The notes below the pieces were generated by a model that saw only the letters and a program-made list of their open reading frames with translations, was not told the origin of the DNA and ran no database searches. From Acidimicrobiia bacterium (GTDB lineage: Bacteria; Actinomycetota; Acidimicrobiia; Spongiisociales; ZC4RG35), in contig DATKEC010000115.1 of NCBI GenBank assembly GCA_035544575.1, positions 22,835 to 86,834 of the forward strand: 64,000 nucleotides of DNA, in the 5' to 3' direction. The position numbers and the translations under genes are program-made. Shown one piece after another: positions 48,126 through 53,356 of the stretch; the first letter of the stretch is position 1, and every line of letters starts with the position of its first letter.

Positions 48126-49505
48126 TCATTCGCTAAGAAACTGGGCGGCGGCGGTCTCGGCGGCGGTGGCGTCGGAATCGGTGAGGGTGTGGTCCGAGTA
48201 GCGGGCTTCCTCGAAGACCTCGGTCACCCGTCCGAGACGGCGATCCGCCACCCGAGCGGAGAACTCGCGGGGGGTCTCGGGTCCACGCGGCGGGTCGTGT
48301 GTGGTCGACACGACGCCGATTGCCCTTCGGTACGCGGCAGCGATACGGCGCCGGATCGGATCGGGCGGATCCCAGACCCTGAGCGCCGCCGGGGTCCCGC
48401 CCCCACCTGCCGTGTCGGGAACTTCGCCAGCTCGGGCGCGGCGCCCGAGGATGCGCCGAATGACCTTCCAAGCTGAGGCCACGAGATCGACGAGCACCAG
48501 CCAGATCAACCGAACAACTCCTCGAACGCCGAGCCTGTTCGCGGGCTCCCCGCCGGACACGCCCGCCCGGCGATTCCTCGCCGCCATCACCACAAACCCG
48601 AAGACGAGGGCGAGGAGCGCCCAGAGGGCGACGTCCCCCACCCACTGGGGAGCGGGTTCGGGCGACGCGAGATCCGGAACCGGCGGTTGTACCACCTCGG
48701 GTGAGTCCGACGGCGCCGACGGGGTGTCGAGCGCGTTCCGAATCCCGACCGCCCGAGCCGCCACCCAGTCTCCAAAGGGTCCGGTCAACCCGAGCGCCCG
48801 AACCGCGACCGTGGTGACACCGGTGGGAACCAGTCCGATCAGGAACGCGACGACGCCGATCGCTCCGACGGTGACGAACACCGAGCGAGCCCAGCGACCA
48901 GCCACGACGGCATCGACGTCCACCCCGTCCCTCCTCCACCGGTGCTGTTCTGCGCGCCTCGCAGCCAGGCCCACGGCGACGAGACCCACCACGAAGTATG
49001 CGAATGGCGCGAGCGACCACGTCGGCGCGGCGCCTCGGGCAAGGTCGACCAGACCGTCGACCCCCACCGCGCCGACTGCCGCGCACCAAACGCTGACGAG
49101 ACCGACGGCCATCATGCGGATACGGAGCCGCTGCACAGGCGTCATCCCGTCGGTCAGTTCGATCGCCCGGTCGATCGCGTCGACATCGGTCAGGGTGGCG
49201 TTCACCAGCGCCCACACAGTGAATCCCACAGCCGCCGCCACGGCGAACTCCACTGCATGGACGGAACCGGTCAAGACCTGCAGGATCAGCACGCCGCCCG
49301 GTATCGCAACGAGTTCGATCCGGCGCCAAACCCGTACCGCTTCAGGGTTGGTGCCGGCGGCGTCGACCCGATCAGGCAGCACGCCTGTCCCGACGGCGAT
49401 GGCCGCCGCCATGCCGCCGACCAGCCACCCACGCGTGGCCGGACTGGCGGAAGCCACCGACACCCCAGCCAGTGCAGCGAGGAGGCCGAGAGTGACTGCG
49501 GTCAC
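48126..49505 (-). CDS. DUF4129-domain membrane protein
   Basis: Multiple TM helices and C-terminal ..REFSARV..EEARYSDH.. The GTG start overlaps the DUF58 stop (GTGA); the in-track start is 49577. Confidence 0.6.
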   Translation of the reverse strand: MTAVTLGLLAALAGVSVASASPATRGWLVGGMAAAIAVGTGVLPDRVDAAGTNPEAVRVWRRIELVAIPGGVLILQVLTGSVHAVEFAVAAAVGFTVWALVNATLTDVDAIDRAIELTDGMTPVQRLRIRMMAVGLVSVWCAAVGAVGVDGLVDLARGAAPTWSLAPFAYFVVGLVAVGLAARRAEQHRWRRDGVDVDAVVAGRWARSVFVTVGAIGVVAFLIGLVPTGVTTVAVRALGLTGPFGDWVAARAVGIRNALDTPSAPSDSPEVVQPPVPDLASPEPAPQWVGDVALWALLALVFGFVVMAARNRRAGVSGGEPANRLGVRGVVRLIWLVLVDLVASAWKVIRRILGRRARAGEVPDTAGGGGTPAALRVWDPPDPIRRRIAAAYRRAIGVVSTTHDPPRGPETPREFSARVADRRLGRVTEVFEEARYSDHTLTDSDATAAETAAAQFLSE

Positions 49506-50665
49506 AGTTCGACCATGTCGGCAAGCCGGGCGACCGACCGGATCGGCACACCCACTTCGCGCATCTCGTCCTCCCATTCACCCCGGTGCTGTTCGCTCGC
49601 GGTGACGATCGCGGTCATCGAGATGCCGAGGCGGGCGAGTCCCATGGCAGCCAGCACGTGTTCGCGGGCCAACACGCCGGCGAACAGCACGACCGAAGAG
49701 CCAAACCCGAGCCCTGACGGGTCGAGCAGCGCAGTGCCATCCGCCTCGACCGAGATGTCGGCTCGGGCCAACCCTTCGAGGATCGTCGTCAACCGATGTT
49801 CGTCTCGCCCGGGCGTCACCTCCCCCACGGTTTCCTCGCCGGTCGGGACGTCACGTCCCGCGATGCGGAGACCCACAGCTTCGCGCCGCACCGTGACGAG
49901 ATGATGGGCGATCGACGCGGCGGCGGTCACCGCCAGCTCCGCCGATCGCCGCCGGCCGGGCGCAGGATGTGAATCCCGCGTGAGATCGACCGCCAATACG
50001 ACCTCGCGCGCCACACCGGGATGATGCTTCTTCACGAGGAGATCGCCGCTCGCCGCGGACGCAGTCCAATGGATCGCCCGGAACGGGTCTCCTGGCTGGT
50101 AGTCCCGCACGCCGACAACGCGGGTCGGATCGGCGTAGAGCGGAACGGATGTGGGGATGAGCGGCAACGGCGCTCCGGCCGCGACGGTGAGATCCTCGAG
50201 CGAGACGATGCGCGGATAGACGAGGATGGTCTGCGACGGGACCAGCGTCGCCTGGACGCGCCTGAGCCCGAAGGAGTCACCGGTCGCGACCGTCGTGGGG
50301 CCGATTCGGTGCAACCCCCTGGCGGTGGCCGAAAACGACGCCACGTGGGTTCGGGCCCGACCGGGGTCGAGTGACGTGACCCAGCGCGTGCTCGGTCCGA
50401 GCGAGAAGGGAATGCTGTCGGTGAGTCGCATCCACGGCACGCGGCGTGGCCCGATCACGCGCAGAGTCACGTCGACCACGTCGCCGAACATCGCCCGATC
50501 CGGAGTCGATCTGGTGACGGACACGCCGTCGAGCTGGCGCGGCGGAAGCCACCAACTCGTCACTGCCCAGCCGGCCAGCAGCACCGCGACTCCAACTGCC
50601 GGATCGACACGGGTCACCAGAGCGATGAGAACGACTGCCACCGCCGGACGGAGCAGCCGGCGCAT
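49502..50665 (-). CDS. DUF58 (vWA-like) protein
   Basis: N-terminal TM helices; ..DYQPGDPFRAIHWTASA.. DUF58 core. Confidence 0.7.
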   Translation of the reverse strand: MRRLLRPAVAVVLIALVTRVDPAVGVAVLLAGWAVTSWWLPPRQLDGVSVTRSTPDRAMFGDVVDVTLRVIGPRRVPWMRLTDSIPFSLGPSTRWVTSLDPGRARTHVASFSATARGLHRIGPTTVATGDSFGLRRVQATLVPSQTILVYPRIVSLEDLTVAAGAPLPLIPTSVPLYADPTRVVGVRDYQPGDPFRAIHWTASAASGDLLVKKHHPGVAREVVLAVDLTRDSHPAPGRRRSAELAVTAAASIAHHLVTVRREAVGLRIAGRDVPTGEETVGEVTPGRDEHRLTTILEGLARADISVEADGTALLDPSGLGFGSSVVLFAGVLAREHVLAAMGLARLGISMTAIVTASEQHRGEWEDEMREVGVPIRSVARLADMVEL

Positions 50666-51608: not shown

Positions 51609-53356
51609 CGGTTGCCCAATCGCACTTCGTCGCGGTAGGCAAAGATCTCCATGCGCTTGCCTTCCGCCCGGAGCTGCTGCCAGCGCTGCCATGTCACGGG
51701 GTCGAAGAGATCCGAGTGCTTGGCCTCGAAGACCTCACGCAGCCGGCCCTGAAGCCCGAGGAAACTCCGGAACTCCTCCGGGAACACATCGTCGGGCCCG
51801 ATCGGGAACCACGGTTCCGCGGACATCGTGTCCTGGGGATCGTCTGAATCGGGAAGCGCCCGGAAGCTCACCTCCTCGAGGGTCTGTAGCTCGTCGTAGT
51901 CGTAGAAGACGACCCGGCCATGGCGGGTCACCCCAAAGTTCTTCATCAGCATGTCTCCAGGGAAGATGCCGCTGGCGGCCATGTCCTTGATGGCGAGGCC
52001 ATAGTCGTCGATCGAACGCTCGGCATCGGCCGGGCGCGCCTCCTTCAAATACACGTCCAGTGGCGTGACCCGTCGTTCGACGTATGTGTGACGGATGGTC
52101 ACCGTGTCGCCGTCGACCTCCACCGAGCGGGAACACTGCTCGACGAGATAGTCCAGGAGACCGGGGTCGAAGCGTTCGCGGGGAAGCGTCAGGTGTTCGA
52201 ATTCCTGGGCGTCGACCAACCGACCCGCCCGGTCATGCCGGAAGACGAGTCGATATCGATTCAACACCCGATCCCGGGTGACCTGCTTCGGCGCGCCGAA
52301 ACGATCCCGGATCACCTTCAGGACGATGTCGAAGCCCGGCAGGGTGAACACGACCATCACCAGCCCCGGCGTACCGCGGGTGGTGACGAAGCGGTCGGGC
52401 GCCACCGAGAGGTGACGGCGGATCTCGCGGTAGAGCTCGGTCTTTCCGTGTTTGACGTAGCCCAGTGAGATGTACAACTCGGCGGTGCGCTTCCGCGGCA
52501 TCAGCGTCCCGAGGAAATGGACCAACGGCTGGGGACCGACGACGTTCACGAAGAAGTAGCTCCGGGTGAAGCTGAACAGGATGCTGACGTCGTTCTCGGT
52601 GAGCAGGACCGCATCGACCCGCACTCCGTCGGCAGCGTGGGCGAGCACCAGGACGACAGGGACCACCTGGGATCCCGACGAGACCCGAGCGACGATCGCC
52701 GCACCCGAACCGCGGAAGAAAAGGGGTACCACCACGTCAGCGCTGTCGATGTTGCGCAGTCCACCGACGGTCGCGAGACGATCGGCGATCCTGTCCCCCG
52801 CCAGGGCGGCGTCCTCTTCGAGGGAACGCCATGCCGCCGCGAGACCGGTGTCGCGGAGGATCTGGGCAACGAGGGCGGCGGCGGATCCGGGCGAGTGATA
52901 GGTGCGGAACACCGGCGTCGTCACGCCAGGAGCCACCACATCGGAGTCCACGAACTCGATCCGTGGATTGACGCCGACGGTCGTGAAGATCTTACGGGTG
53001 ACCGAGTTGAAGAAAGTCTCGGCCAGCTCGGTGTCAGGTCGGGTCGAAACCAGCACGGCGTAGACCGCCTTCATGCCCGCCCACACCATCGGATCGTGAT
53101 CCCTGGCTTCGAGAGTGTGGCGGAGGCGGTCGGCGGTGTCGGCCGCGGCCCGGGCGTACAGATCCAGGCGCTCGACGTGATCGGCGGCCAGTCCGGCCCA
53201 GTCCCGAGCTTCGAAGCGATGCCTCGCCCGCCGGGTGACGATCAGATGGCGGTCTGCGAGCTCGGACCACGCGGAAGCGACTGCCTTGGCGCCCAGACCC
53301 GCCAAGCGGGAGTCGCTCAGATCTGCGCCTGCGGCTCCGGAGGAGGATGCGGTCAT
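51605..53356 (-). CDS. aceK: Isocitrate dehydrogenase kinase/phosphatase
   Basis: Colinear similarity to E. coli AceK (..TAELY..LGY.KHGKTE.YRE.., [55 protein letters not shown]); start at MTASSSG, with AGGAGG upstream. Confidence 0.85.
   Translation of the reverse strand: [583 protein letters not shown]

What the first reader, a model, noticed from the sequence alone, without database searches (positions are those of the whole stretch)
48126..53356. aceK joined by a GTGA overlap to a MoxR-DUF58-DUF4129 operon, followed by a Pat acetyltransferase
A full-length AceK, the bifunctional kinase/phosphatase known from the glyoxylate bypass of Proteobacteria and unusual in Actinobacteria, ends with a TGA that overlaps the GTG start of a MoxR AAA+ ATPase. 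MoxR is in turn tightly coupled to DUF58 (vWA-like) and DUF4129 membrane proteins (ATG 1 nt after the TGA, then a GTGA overlap). A GNAT-NDP-forming acyl-CoA synthetase protein of the actinobacterial PatA type, presumably a lysine acetyltransferase, lies 83 nt downstream. This places a metabolic phospho-switch enzyme in the same transcription unit as a chaperone-like MoxR system and next to an acetylation switch. I am not aware of this linkage being described.
Basis: partly seen in the sequence, partly recalled or inferred. Interest (0 to 1): 0.5.

Follow-up and report, generated by a model that had tools for sequence, protein, structure and literature searches.

The report
Conserved aceK-MoxR-acetyltransferase operon in Acidimicrobiia
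An uncultured actinobacterium carries the enzyme that switches isocitrate dehydrogenase off by phosphorylation in one tightly packed operon with a membrane-anchored MoxR ATPase cassette and an acetyltransferase/acetate-CoA ligase fusion; the arrangement is inherited across a deep lineage, but each part can be lost on its own, so it looks like shared regulation rather than one machine.

Summary
On the minus strand, aceK (53356-51605) overlaps moxR by GTGA. The DUF58 ATG follows the moxR stop after 1 nt, and the DUF4129 gene overlaps DUF58 by GTGA. All family calls pass curated thresholds, and the AceK catalytic residues are intact.

The window comes from an Acidimicrobiia MAG, and NCBI already annotates exactly these gene models. 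The linkage is not unique to this genome. The order aceK-moxR-DUF58-DUF4129-pat(-ech) recurs in at least eight distinct lineages of one Acidimicrobiia clade, with AceK identity down to 50%, usually with the same 4-nt aceK/moxR overlap. It occurs in none of about 145 AceK loci from other taxa.

The modules are separable. Some relatives have aceK-pat-ech, some have aceK-ech, and one has moxR-DUF58-DUF4129-pat-ech without aceK. The tree favours an ancestral operon with repeated cassette loss.

The most likely reading is co-transcribed but functionally independent regulators of the acetyl-CoA/TCA branch point plus a MoxR cassette of unknown client. A direct AceK-MoxR or AceK-Pat interaction is possible but unsupported. 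icd, aceA and aceB are not in the window. The "Pat" keeps the phospho-histidine motif of active ADP-forming ligases. No paper describes the linkage.

The parts
51605..53356 (-). aceK: bifunctional isocitrate dehydrogenase kinase/phosphatase, 583 aa
   Evidence: PF20423 and PF06315. NF002804 at 641 bits against a cut-off of 488. 386 bits to E. coli AceK 3eps, with K336, D457, K461, N462, D475 and D477 conserved. Identical to NCBI HVR33586.1.
51605..51608 (-). GTGA overlap of the aceK stop and the moxR start
   Evidence: Read directly from the sequence. The same 4-nt overlap is present in L001, L164, L165 and L167, and as ATGA in L004.
50667..51608 (-). moxR: MoxR-type AAA+ ATPase, 313 aa, soluble
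   Evidence: AAA_3 at 207 bits plus AAA_lid_2. Walker A GTGKT at aa 49 and Walker B LADE at aa 107. No hydrophobic segment. NCBI HVR33585.1.
49502..50665 (-). DUF58 (vWA-like) protein, 387 aa, with an N-terminal membrane anchor
   Evidence: PF01882. Hydrophobic segment at aa 7-32. The ATG lies 1 nt after the moxR TGA. The MIDAS-like position reads DLTRDS here and DLSRSS in L001/L004.
48126..49505 (-). DUF4129 protein, 459 aa from the GTG start: polytopic membrane protein with a soluble C-terminal DUF4129 domain
   Evidence: PF13559 at aa 391-452, and no transglutaminase core even at E<=1. About 7-8 hydrophobic segments. GTGA overlap with DUF58. NCBI HVR33583.1, 459 aa.
48044..48125 (-). 82-nt spacer between the DUF4129 gene and pat
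   Evidence: Read directly from the sequence. No terminator-like or promoter-like site. The same spacer is 10 nt in L001 and 28-29 nt in L164/L165.
45314..48043 (-). [quoted passage not shown]
   Evidence: Pfam domains. The GNAT half matches the S. lividans Pat GNAT structure 4nxy at 1e-36, and the ligase half matches the genuine ADP-forming 4-hydroxybutyrate-CoA ligase 8wzu at 499 bits. NCBI name: 'bifunctional GNAT family N-acetyltransferase/acetate--CoA ligase family protein'.
46697..46714 (-). Codons for SHTGAL (aa 444-449), the phospho-histidine motif of NDP-forming acyl-CoA synthetases
   Evidence: Aligned to 'SHTGAL' of 8wzu and deleted in E. coli PatZ 9isq. Invariant in 10 orthologues.
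53357..53515 (.). Divergent aceK-amt intergenic region, holding the conserved direct repeat GTTTCG-N5-GTTTCG at 53404-53420
   Evidence: Alignment of four loci. The pattern occurs twice in the window against 0.01 expected.
53516..54844 (+). amt: ammonium transporter, divergent from aceK
   Evidence: TIGR00836 at 426 bits. Also divergent from aceK in L001, L004, L005 and L174, but absent in L164-L167.
38484..39287 (-). ech: enoyl-CoA hydratase. In relatives it is the last conserved gene of the operon; here it is separated from pat by inserted genes.
   Evidence: ECH_1. It lies directly after pat in L003/L005, L006, L164, L165, L167, L171, L173 and L174.
39305..41047 (-). AMP-forming acyl-CoA synthetase and candidate Pat substrate. 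Coordinates are the stop-to-stop ORF; the start was not determined.
   Evidence: AMP-binding plus AMP-binding_C. C-terminal ELPKTVSGK, i.e. the PX4GK lysine motif.
43436..45235 (-). NIT-sensor PP2C (SpoIIE) phosphatase directly downstream of pat
   Evidence: NIT plus SpoIIE. Found at the same position in L001, but not in L164-L174.

Best explanation
This is an ancestral, vertically inherited operon of a deep clade of Acidimicrobiia, with the order aceK | moxR-DUF58-DUF4129 | pat(-ech). It sits downstream of the conserved mfd-mazG-eno-divIC-DUF501-ppx-tRNA-Leu block.

The parts:
- AceK is a canonical, catalytically intact isocitrate dehydrogenase kinase/phosphatase. It presumably throttles ICDH so that isocitrate enters the glyoxylate bypass (inferred).
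- The 909-aa 'Pat' has an SlPatA-like domain order, with the GNAT domain at the N-terminus. Its ADP-forming ligase half still carries the phospho-histidine motif. It probably interconverts acetate and acetyl-CoA and also acetylates AMP-forming acyl-CoA synthetases (inferred).
- MoxR, DUF58 and DUF4129 form a membrane-anchored AAA+/vWA-like remodelling cassette whose client is unknown.

Overlapping stop and start codons show that the genes are expressed as one translationally coupled unit. Each of the three modules is missing in some lineages while the others stay in place. The linkage therefore most likely reflects shared regulation, with one promoter delivering post-translational controllers of the acetyl-CoA/TCA branch point together with a MoxR cassette. 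It is less likely to reflect an obligate physical AceK-MoxR partnership.
For: Gene identities come, and the junctions.

The same order, mostly with a 4-nt aceK/moxR overlap, occurs in:
- L001/L002 and L004, with AceK 79-80% identical.
- L164, L165/L166 and L167, about 62%.
- L171, 57%, with a cyclase gene inserted between aceK and moxR.
- L090, 50%.
Seven further AceK/MoxR cluster pairs share a contig length.

Evidence for vertical inheritance:
- Identities to the window scale together: Eno 75-81%, MazG 52-62%, AceK 53-62%, MoxR 59-63%, DUF58 41-42%, DUF4129 29-31%, Pat 62-69%.
- GC content is unremarkable.

Evidence that the modules are separable:
- aceK-pat-ech in L003/L005, L006 and L174.
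- aceK-ech in L007 and L008.
- moxR-DUF58-DUF4129-pat-ech without aceK in L173.
- The cassette alone, in a different context, in L170.

In the bootstrapped AceK tree, cassette-bearing and cassette-lacking lineages interleave: L005 with the window clade at 84%, L174 with the L164 clade at 66%, and L171 inside a 100% clade with L007/L008.

The linkage is absent from about 145 AceK loci of other taxa. Of the 165 loci, 65 instead have icd, aceA or aceB within 10 kb.

The acetyl-CoA theme is supported by the invariant SHTGAL motif and GNAT motif A, the ech gene, and an acyl-CoA synthetase with the PKTVSGK motif nearby.
Against: - There is no expression data. The promoter and terminator scan was uninformative, so internal promoters cannot be excluded, for example in the 82-nt spacer before pat.
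- The whole region is syntenic, so adjacency alone could persist without selection.
- The aceK/moxR overlap is conserved even where the start codon differs (GTG against ATG). Repeated retention of the cassette exactly between aceK and pat would also fit a closer functional tie than mere co-regulation.
- The presence of an AceK-compatible ICDH and of aceA/aceB in these genomes could not be checked.
- In the MoxR NJ tree, L171 and L090 fall outside the main AceK-linked clade. A single ancestral origin of all linked cassettes is therefore likely but not proven.
Confidence: 0.6

Rival explanations
1. Direct AceK-MoxR partnership. The membrane-anchored MoxR/DUF58/DUF4129 system remodels, localises or activates ICDH or AceK, or MoxR is itself phosphorylated by AceK. 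The four genes would then form one regulatory machine at the TCA/glyoxylate branch point.
For: - The 4-nt aceK/moxR overlap is conserved in six distinct loci, with different start codons.
- Insertions accumulated on both sides of the aceK-moxR-DUF58-DUF4129 unit but not inside it in most lineages.
- There are precedents in the literature. In the Bifidobacterium PFNA operon, the kinase Pkb2 phosphorylates the MoxR ATPase encoded in the same operon (PMC8430577). Francisella MoxR binds pyruvate and oxoglutarate dehydrogenases and is needed for their full activity (PMC5368251).
Against: - AceK persists without the cassette in L003/L005, L006, L007, L008 and L174, and in all other phyla.
- The cassette persists without aceK in L173 and L170.
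- L171 tolerates a cyclase gene between aceK and moxR, and L090 has a 54-nt gap there.
- E. coli AceK is described as highly substrate-specific (PMC4999502).
- There is no interaction data.
Confidence: 0.12
2. Direct AceK-Pat crosstalk. The functionally meaningful pair is aceK-pat: the GNAT domain acetylates AceK and/or ICDH, as was claimed for Salmonella, or AceK phosphorylates the ligase. The MoxR cassette would be a passenger.
For: - aceK and pat stay adjacent when the cassette is lost, with a 4-nt overlap in L003 and a 9-nt gap in L174.
- pat lies within about 4-8 kb of aceK even in distant L090 and L097.
- Salmonella Pat was reported to acetylate AceK at K72, K83 and K553 (Wang et al. 2010, as tabulated in PMC6640162).
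Against: - The Salmonella result could not be reproduced by another group (Crosby et al. 2012, as stated in PMC6640162).
- aceK persists without pat in L007 and L008, and pat without aceK in L173.
- A shared theme of acetate/acetyl-CoA metabolism explains the adjacency without enzyme-on-enzyme modification.
Confidence: 0.1
3. Neutral synteny. The genes are neighbours only because this chromosomal region rearranges slowly. They have unrelated functions and possibly separate promoters, and the overlaps reflect genome compaction.
For: - The flanking mfd-ppiC-mazG-eno-divIC-DUF501-ppx-tRNA-Leu block is equally conserved.
- All three modules are individually dispensable.
- No regulatory signal was detected.
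Against: - Stop/start overlaps enforce co-transcription of aceK, moxR, DUF58 and DUF4129.
- The order is kept over divergence at which AceK is only 50-62% identical, while many unrelated genes were inserted or lost around it.
- aceK, pat, ech and the nearby acyl-CoA synthetase share an acetyl-CoA theme.
Confidence: 0.18

Closest known systems
E. coli AceK / aceBAK glyoxylate-bypass phospho-switch
   Same: The two-domain architecture is the same. The protein aligns end to end with the E. coli structures 3eps and 3lc6 (386 bits). K336, D457, K461, N462, D475 and D477 are conserved, as are the F-R-x-(I/L)-P and EPW(F/Y) anchors of the substrate-recognition loop. The score exceeds the NCBIfam equivalog cut-off.
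   Different: The host is an actinobacterium of the class Acidimicrobiia. aceB, aceA and icd are not within 10 kb here or in any clade member, whereas 65 of 165 AceK loci from other phyla have one of them adjacent. Instead, aceK leads an operon with a MoxR cassette and a GNAT/ligase fusion.
Type II GNAT protein acetyltransferase, Streptomyces lividans PatA (and type I E. coli PatZ / Salmonella Pat)
   Same: The N-terminal GNAT is followed by an NDP-forming acyl-CoA synthetase-like region, the SlPatA order. The GNAT half matches the S. lividans Pat GNAT structure 4nxy at 1e-36, and the whole protein matches PatZ 9isq at 355 bits. GNAT motif A, QGxGxG, is present.
   Different: The ligase half retains the SHTGAL phospho-histidine motif and is closer to genuine ADP-forming ligases (8wzu, 499 bits) than to PatZ, which has a deletion at that position. 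The review PMC8556138 states that type I and II enzymes are inactive because this histidine is missing. I saw no collagen-like G-P-S linker when reading the sequence; this was not tested formally.
MoxR (MRP subfamily)-DUF58 cassettes of Actinobacteria, e.g. the Bifidobacterium PFNA operon pkb2-fn3-aaa_atp-duf58-tgm
   Same: A protein kinase gene stands upstream of a MoxR AAA+ gene, a DUF58 gene and a polytopic membrane protein gene in a single operon (PMC8430577).
   Different: The kinase here is AceK, not a Hanks-type Ser/Thr kinase. There is no FN3 gene. The third cassette gene has DUF4129 but no transglutaminase core. The cassette is followed by pat-ech.
Francisella tularensis MoxR
   Same: It is a MoxR-family AAA+ ATPase tied to central carbon metabolism. 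It binds pyruvate and oxoglutarate dehydrogenases and is needed for their full activity (PMC5368251).
   Different: That link is biochemical and has no AceK involvement. No comparable data exist here, and the only connection in this window is gene order.

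Membership tests
AceK (isocitrate dehydrogenase kinase/phosphatase) | Regulatory domain (PF20423) plus kinase domain (PF06315), full length, above curated cut-offs | tested here: met
   271 and 349 bits. NF002804 equivalog at 641 bits against a cut-off of 488, covering profile positions 7-575 of 582.
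AceK (isocitrate dehydrogenase kinase/phosphatase) | Catalytic and ATP-binding residues of E. coli AceK (K336, D457, N462, D475, D477) and the substrate-recognition loop | tested here: met
   In the alignment to 3eps, the motifs VLKVI, [24 protein letters not shown] and the loop FRALP...AEPWF are conserved without gaps. These positions are invariant in 16 Acidimicrobiia AceKs.
AceK (isocitrate dehydrogenase kinase/phosphatase) | A homodimeric ICDH substrate with the phospho-serine and the AceK recognition segment in the same genome | not testable with these tools
   No icd in the 64-kb window. The whole genomes could not be searched.
AceK (isocitrate dehydrogenase kinase/phosphatase) | Classical genomic context, next to aceB/aceA or icd | tested here: not met
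   tblastn with E. coli Icd, AceA and AceB found nothing in the window or in the loci of its AceK clade that were searched. 65 other AceK loci do have one of these genes adjacent.
MoxR AAA+ ATPase (MRP-type) with a vWA-like partner | AAA_3 plus AAA_lid_2, intact Walker A and B, and an adjacent DUF58/vWA-like gene | tested here: met
   207 and 72 bits. GTGKT and LADE present. The DUF58 gene starts 1 nt downstream.
DUF58 (vWA-like clan) | PF01882 match above cut-off; a metal-binding MIDAS motif DxSxS if it works like a canonical vWA domain | tested here: inconclusive
   PF01882 at 45 bits, above the 23.4 cut-off. The MIDAS-like position reads DLTRDS in the window, DLSRSS in L001/L004 and DLSRGS in L165/L167.
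TgpA-like transglutaminase membrane protein (the usual third gene of actinobacterial MoxR cassettes) | Transglutaminase core between the membrane region and the C-terminal DUF4129 | tested here: not met
   Only DUF4129 (aa 391-452) was found, even at E<=1. There are 7-8 hydrophobic segments upstream of it.
Type II GNAT lysine acetyltransferase (SlPatA type) | [quoted passage not shown] | tested here: met
   Pfam domain order. GNAT matches S. lividans 4nxy at 1e-36. QGHGIG present.
Type II GNAT lysine acetyltransferase (SlPatA type) | Ligase-like domain catalytically dead through loss of the catalytic histidine (as defined in PMC8556138) | tested here: not met
   SHTGAL is retained, aligned to the motif of the active ligase 8wzu and deleted in PatZ. 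It is invariant in 10 orthologues.
Type II GNAT lysine acetyltransferase (SlPatA type) | Lysine acetyltransferase activity on AMP-forming acyl-CoA synthetases | not testable with these tools
   Only a candidate substrate was found, an AMP-binding enzyme with the PKTVSGK motif at 39305-41047.
Anti-phage defence systems containing MoxR/vWA | Match to a PADLOC model | tested here: not met
   No hit for any of the five proteins.

The most novel reading that the evidence does not exclude
The MoxR-DUF58-DUF4129 cassette could be a dedicated, membrane-tethered remodeller of the ICDH/AceK phospho-switch, or a substrate of AceK, paralleling Pkb2 acting on MoxR in Bifidobacterium. Together with the bifunctional GNAT/ADP-forming ligase, it would form a three-layer hub of phosphorylation, ATP-driven remodelling and acetylation that sets carbon partitioning at the isocitrate/acetyl-CoA node in Acidimicrobiia. 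This would give a MoxR-DUF58 cassette its first defined metabolic client.
Probability: 0.1. Interest if true: 0.75.

Novelty: new variant of a known kind. Interest (0 to 1): 0.42.

Why it matters
- AceK is textbook Proteobacterial biology, and a 2016 paper states that it exists only in Gram-negatives. Here it is a conserved, intact gene of an actinobacterial class, detached from aceBA/icd and leading an operon of other post-translational regulators.
- The operon offers a natural test bed for two unresolved questions. One is what MoxR-DUF58 cassettes act on. The other is whether Pat-type acetyltransferases talk to the AceK/ICDH switch, a disputed Salmonella claim.
- It also shows that GNAT/NDP-forming-ligase fusions are not all 'dead-ligase' sensors, since this subfamily keeps the phospho-histidine.
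- The practical value is limited. The organisms are uncultured, the genes are already annotated, and the evidence for any functional tie is gene order only.

Tried and rejected
1. My first hypothesis was that the MoxR cassette is a recent insertion into an ancestral aceK-pat operon. It rested on L003/L005/L006 and the GTDB scan. I rejected it after finding the cassette in L090, L164-L167 and L171 and after the bootstrapped AceK tree.
2. Exact look-up of the window's own AceK contig found nothing on record.
It did yield L090 and L097.
4. icd, aceA and aceB were sought in the window by Pfam on about 50 ORFs and by tblastn with the E. coli proteins. None was found.
5. The promoter/terminator scan found no promoter-like site and two terminator-like sites inside genes, below the chance level.
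6. Rfam found only a tRNA.
7. Tandem and dispersed repeat searches found nothing beyond short GC-rich chance matches.
8. PADLOC gave no hit.
9. A permissive Pfam search for a transglutaminase core in the DUF4129 protein found none.
10. The MoxR NJ tree left the positions of L171 and L090 unresolved relative to the non-linked L170 and L172.
11. Horizontal origin was considered. There is no compositional anomaly, and identities scale with housekeeping genes, so recent transfer is unlikely.
12. Structure prediction and fold search were not used, because sequence-level matches to solved structures were already decisive for AceK and Pat.

Full report
**What is there.** The window has high GC content (about 66%) with no compositional break around the finding. 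The minus strand carries five consecutive genes.
- aceK, 53356-51605, 583 aa. It hits both AceK Pfam domains and scores 641 bits on the NCBIfam equivalog NF002804, against a cut-off of 488.
- moxR, 51608-50667. It has AAA_3 and AAA_lid_2, with intact Walker A (GTGKT) and Walker B (LADE) motifs.
- A DUF58 gene, 50665-49502.
- A DUF4129 gene, 49505-48126.
- A 909-aa gene, 48043-45314, with an N-terminal GNAT followed by CoA_binding, Succ_CoA_lig and ATP-grasp_5.

aceK and moxR share a GTGA overlap. The DUF58 ATG lies 1 nt after the moxR TGA. DUF58 and DUF4129 share a GTGA overlap. The spacer before pat is 82 nt, not 83. NCBI's PGAP models for this record are identical: HVR33586.1 to HVR33582.1, from an Acidimicrobiia MAG contig of 108,722 bp. 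PGAP names the last protein 'bifunctional GNAT family N-acetyltransferase/acetate--CoA ligase family protein'.

**Is AceK real and competent?** It aligns over residues 25-580 with E. coli AceK structures at 386 bits. The ATP-binding lysine (E. coli K336), the catalytic and metal-binding residues (D457, K461, N462, D475, D477) and the anchors of the substrate-recognition loop are all conserved. These positions are invariant in an alignment of 16 Acidimicrobiia AceKs.

AceK homologues at 54-100% identity form at least 120 clusters, and every cluster that carries a source name is labelled Acidimicrobiia, Actinomycetota or soil metagenome. A scan of species-representative genomes also found AceK in Chloroflexota, Acidobacteriota, Verrucomicrobiota, Gemmatimonadota, Bacteroidota, Desulfobacterota and others. 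The statement in PMC4999502 that AceK exists only in Gram-negative bacteria is therefore outdated.

**Is the linkage conserved?** Yes. I compared the window proteins by tblastn with about 170 AceK- or MoxR-containing loci fetched from public assemblies. I also read the called genes of the looked-up contigs. The order aceK-moxR-DUF58-DUF4129-pat occurs in the following lineages:

| Locus | AceK identity to window | Notes |
|---|---|---|
| L001/L002 | 79% | same order |
| L004 | 80% | ATGA overlap; contig ends before pat |
| L164 | 62% | pat followed by ech |
| L165/L166, L167 | about 62% | found by querying with MoxR |
| L171 | 57% | adenylate-cyclase gene inserted between aceK and moxR |
| L090 | 50% | 54-nt gap; two extra genes before pat |

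Seven more AceK/MoxR cluster pairs share a contig length, which suggests further cases. The aceK/moxR 4-nt overlap is present in the window, L001, L004, L164, L165 and L167. None of about 145 AceK loci from other taxa has a MoxR, DUF58 or Pat homologue next to aceK. Instead, 65 of the 165 loci have icd, aceA or aceB within 10 kb, and no member of the Acidimicrobiia clade does.

**The modules are separable.**
- L003/L005, L006 and L174 have aceK followed directly by pat-ech, with a 4-nt overlap in L003 and a 9-nt gap in L174.
- L007 and L008 have aceK-ech without pat.
- L173 has moxR-DUF58-DUF4129-pat-ech with a Na+/H+ exchanger where aceK would be.
- L170 has the cassette in an unrelated context, next to JAB/ThiS/PALP genes.
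- L172 has a lone MoxR.

In a bootstrapped NJ tree of AceK, cassette-bearing and cassette-lacking lineages interleave. L005 is sister to the window clade at 84%. L174 is sister to the L164 clade at 66%. L171 sits inside a 100% clade with L007 and L008. Identities to the window scale together for housekeeping and operon genes: Eno 75-81%, MazG 52-62%, AceK 53-62%, MoxR 59-63%, DUF58 41-42%, DUF4129 29-31%, Pat 62-69% and ECH 63-71%.

The simplest history is an ancestral operon aceK-moxR-DUF58-DUF4129-pat-ech with at least four cassette losses and one aceK loss. My first idea, a recent cassette insertion, is rejected. The MoxR tree is compatible with vertical inheritance but does not resolve L171 and L090.

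**Surroundings.** The operon lies downstream of the block mfd-ppiC-mazG-eno-divIC-DUF501-ppx-tRNA-Leu(TAA). From my own knowledge, this block resembles the M. tuberculosis Rv1020-Rv1026 synteny.

In L164, L165 and L090 the tRNA ends 19-47 nt before the aceK start. In the window clade, ispD, an unknown gene and a divergent amt lie in between. Also in the window clade, several genes were inserted between pat and ech:
- a NIT-sensor PP2C phosphatase;
- a sigma factor;
- an AMP-forming acyl-CoA synthetase with the PKTVSGK lysine motif.

No promoter-like site and no credible terminator was found within the operon. Rfam found only the tRNA. There are no notable repeats.

**The individual parts.**
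- *MoxR cassette.* MoxR is soluble. DUF58 has an N-terminal hydrophobic hairpin. The DUF4129 protein has about 7-8 hydrophobic segments and a soluble C-terminal DUF4129 domain, and it lacks a transglutaminase core. The MIDAS-like DxSxS of DUF58 is intact only in L001/L004. No PADLOC defence model matches.
- *The 'Pat'.* Its GNAT half matches the S. lividans Pat GNAT crystal structure at 1e-36. Its ligase half is closer to a genuine ADP-forming 4-hydroxybutyrate-CoA ligase (8wzu, 499 bits) than to E. coli PatZ (355 bits). It keeps the SHTGAL phospho-histidine motif, which PatZ has deleted. This motif and GNAT motif A are invariant in ten orthologues. The review PMC8556138 defines type I and II GNATs as having a ligase domain that is inactive for lack of this histidine. 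The protein therefore has the SlPatA architecture but fails one defining feature, and it is probably bifunctional.

**How it most likely works.** *Shown:* the genes form one compact, translationally coupled and deeply conserved gene string. All catalytic motifs are intact. The modules are individually dispensable. *Inferred:* AceK gates ICDH. The GNAT/ligase fusion handles acetate/acetyl-CoA and acetylates acyl-CoA synthetases. ech and the nearby acyl-CoA synthetase fit an acetate/fatty-acid theme. The MoxR cassette is co-expressed with them but serves an unknown, probably membrane-associated client.

I put 0.6 on this co-regulated, separable-modules reading. The rivals and their weights are:
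- a direct AceK-MoxR partnership, 0.12. Precedents are Pkb2 phosphorylating MoxR in the Bifidobacterium PFNA operon (PMC8430577) and Francisella MoxR binding PDH/OGDH (PMC5368251);
- direct Pat-AceK crosstalk, 0.10. This is the disputed Salmonella report summarised in PMC6640162;
- neutral synteny, 0.18.

**Novelty and verdict.** Every gene is a member of a known family and is already annotated. What is new is the conserved operon context. Full-text searches found no paper holding both AceK and MoxR, and the single paper holding AceK and Acidimicrobi- looked irrelevant from its title and abstract. I rate it a new variant of a known kind, of moderate interest. The key untested points are co-transcription, the ICDH type in these genomes, and any physical interaction among the products.

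Noticed in passing
window 46697-46714 (pat codons 444-449); also L001, L005, L006, L097, L164, L165, L167, L171, L173, L174: The GNAT/NDP-forming-ligase fusion keeps the SHTGAL phospho-histidine motif of active ADP-forming acyl-CoA synthetases. The motif is invariant in 10 orthologues, although reviews define type I/II Pat enzymes as lacking this histidine, and E. coli PatZ has a deletion at that position.
   Followed up: partly
window 53404-53420 (aceK-amt intergenic); second copy at 37981-37997: A direct repeat GTTTCG-N5-GTTTCG (reverse complement GAAAC-N6-GAAAC type, reminiscent of actinobacterial GlnR boxes) is conserved in the amt-aceK intergenic region of the window, L001 and L004, and partly in L005. 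There are 2 matches in the window against 0.01 expected. It may tie the divergent promoters to nitrogen control.
   Followed up: partly
window 56263-56348 (-); L164 9876-9963; L165 6131-6217; L090 808-894: tRNA-Leu(TAA) follows ppx in all relatives. In L164, L165 and L090 it ends only 19-47 nt before the aceK start codon, so aceK may be co-transcribed with the tRNA. In the window clade, ispD, an unknown gene and amt are inserted at this spot.
   Followed up: partly
window 41005-45235: A NIT-sensor SpoIIE/PP2C phosphatase (43436-45235) and a sigma-70-family factor (42071-43411, + strand) lie immediately downstream of pat. The syntenic L001 locus adds STAS and HATPase_c_2 partner-switching genes. 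This block is specific to the window clade and sits between pat and ech.
   Followed up: no
window 39305-41047: An AMP-forming acyl-CoA synthetase ends in ELPKTVSGKIRR, the PX4GK lysine motif acetylated by Pat-type enzymes. It is a candidate local substrate of the GNAT domain.
   Followed up: no
window 33717-36650; L171 2248-3054: A 977-aa adenylate/guanylate cyclase fused to a STAND NTPase lies in the window. In L171, a small DUF6582-cyclase gene is inserted exactly between aceK and moxR.
   Followed up: no
window 2520-5781: Two tandem dynamin-like GTPase genes (Dynamin_N hits) lie next to an MscS-type channel gene.
   Followed up: no
loci L004-L163: AceK is widespread outside Proteobacteria, in Chloroflexota, Acidobacteriota, Verrucomicrobiota, Gemmatimonadota, Bacteroidota, Trueperaceae and Selenomonadaceae. 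Of 165 loci, 65 have icd, aceA or aceB within 10 kb. The literature statement that AceK is restricted to Gram-negative Proteobacteria-like organisms is outdated.
   Followed up: partly
L018, L022: Two AceK genes from MAGs labelled Acidobacteriota nest inside an Acidimicrobiia AceK subclade, next to L012 and L013. This reflects either lateral transfer or mis-binning.
   Followed up: no
window 49502-50665 (DUF58 aa ~225-235): The MIDAS-like DxSxS position of the DUF58 vWA-like protein reads DLTRDS in the window but DLSRSS in L001/L004. Metal binding by this domain may not be conserved.
   Followed up: partly
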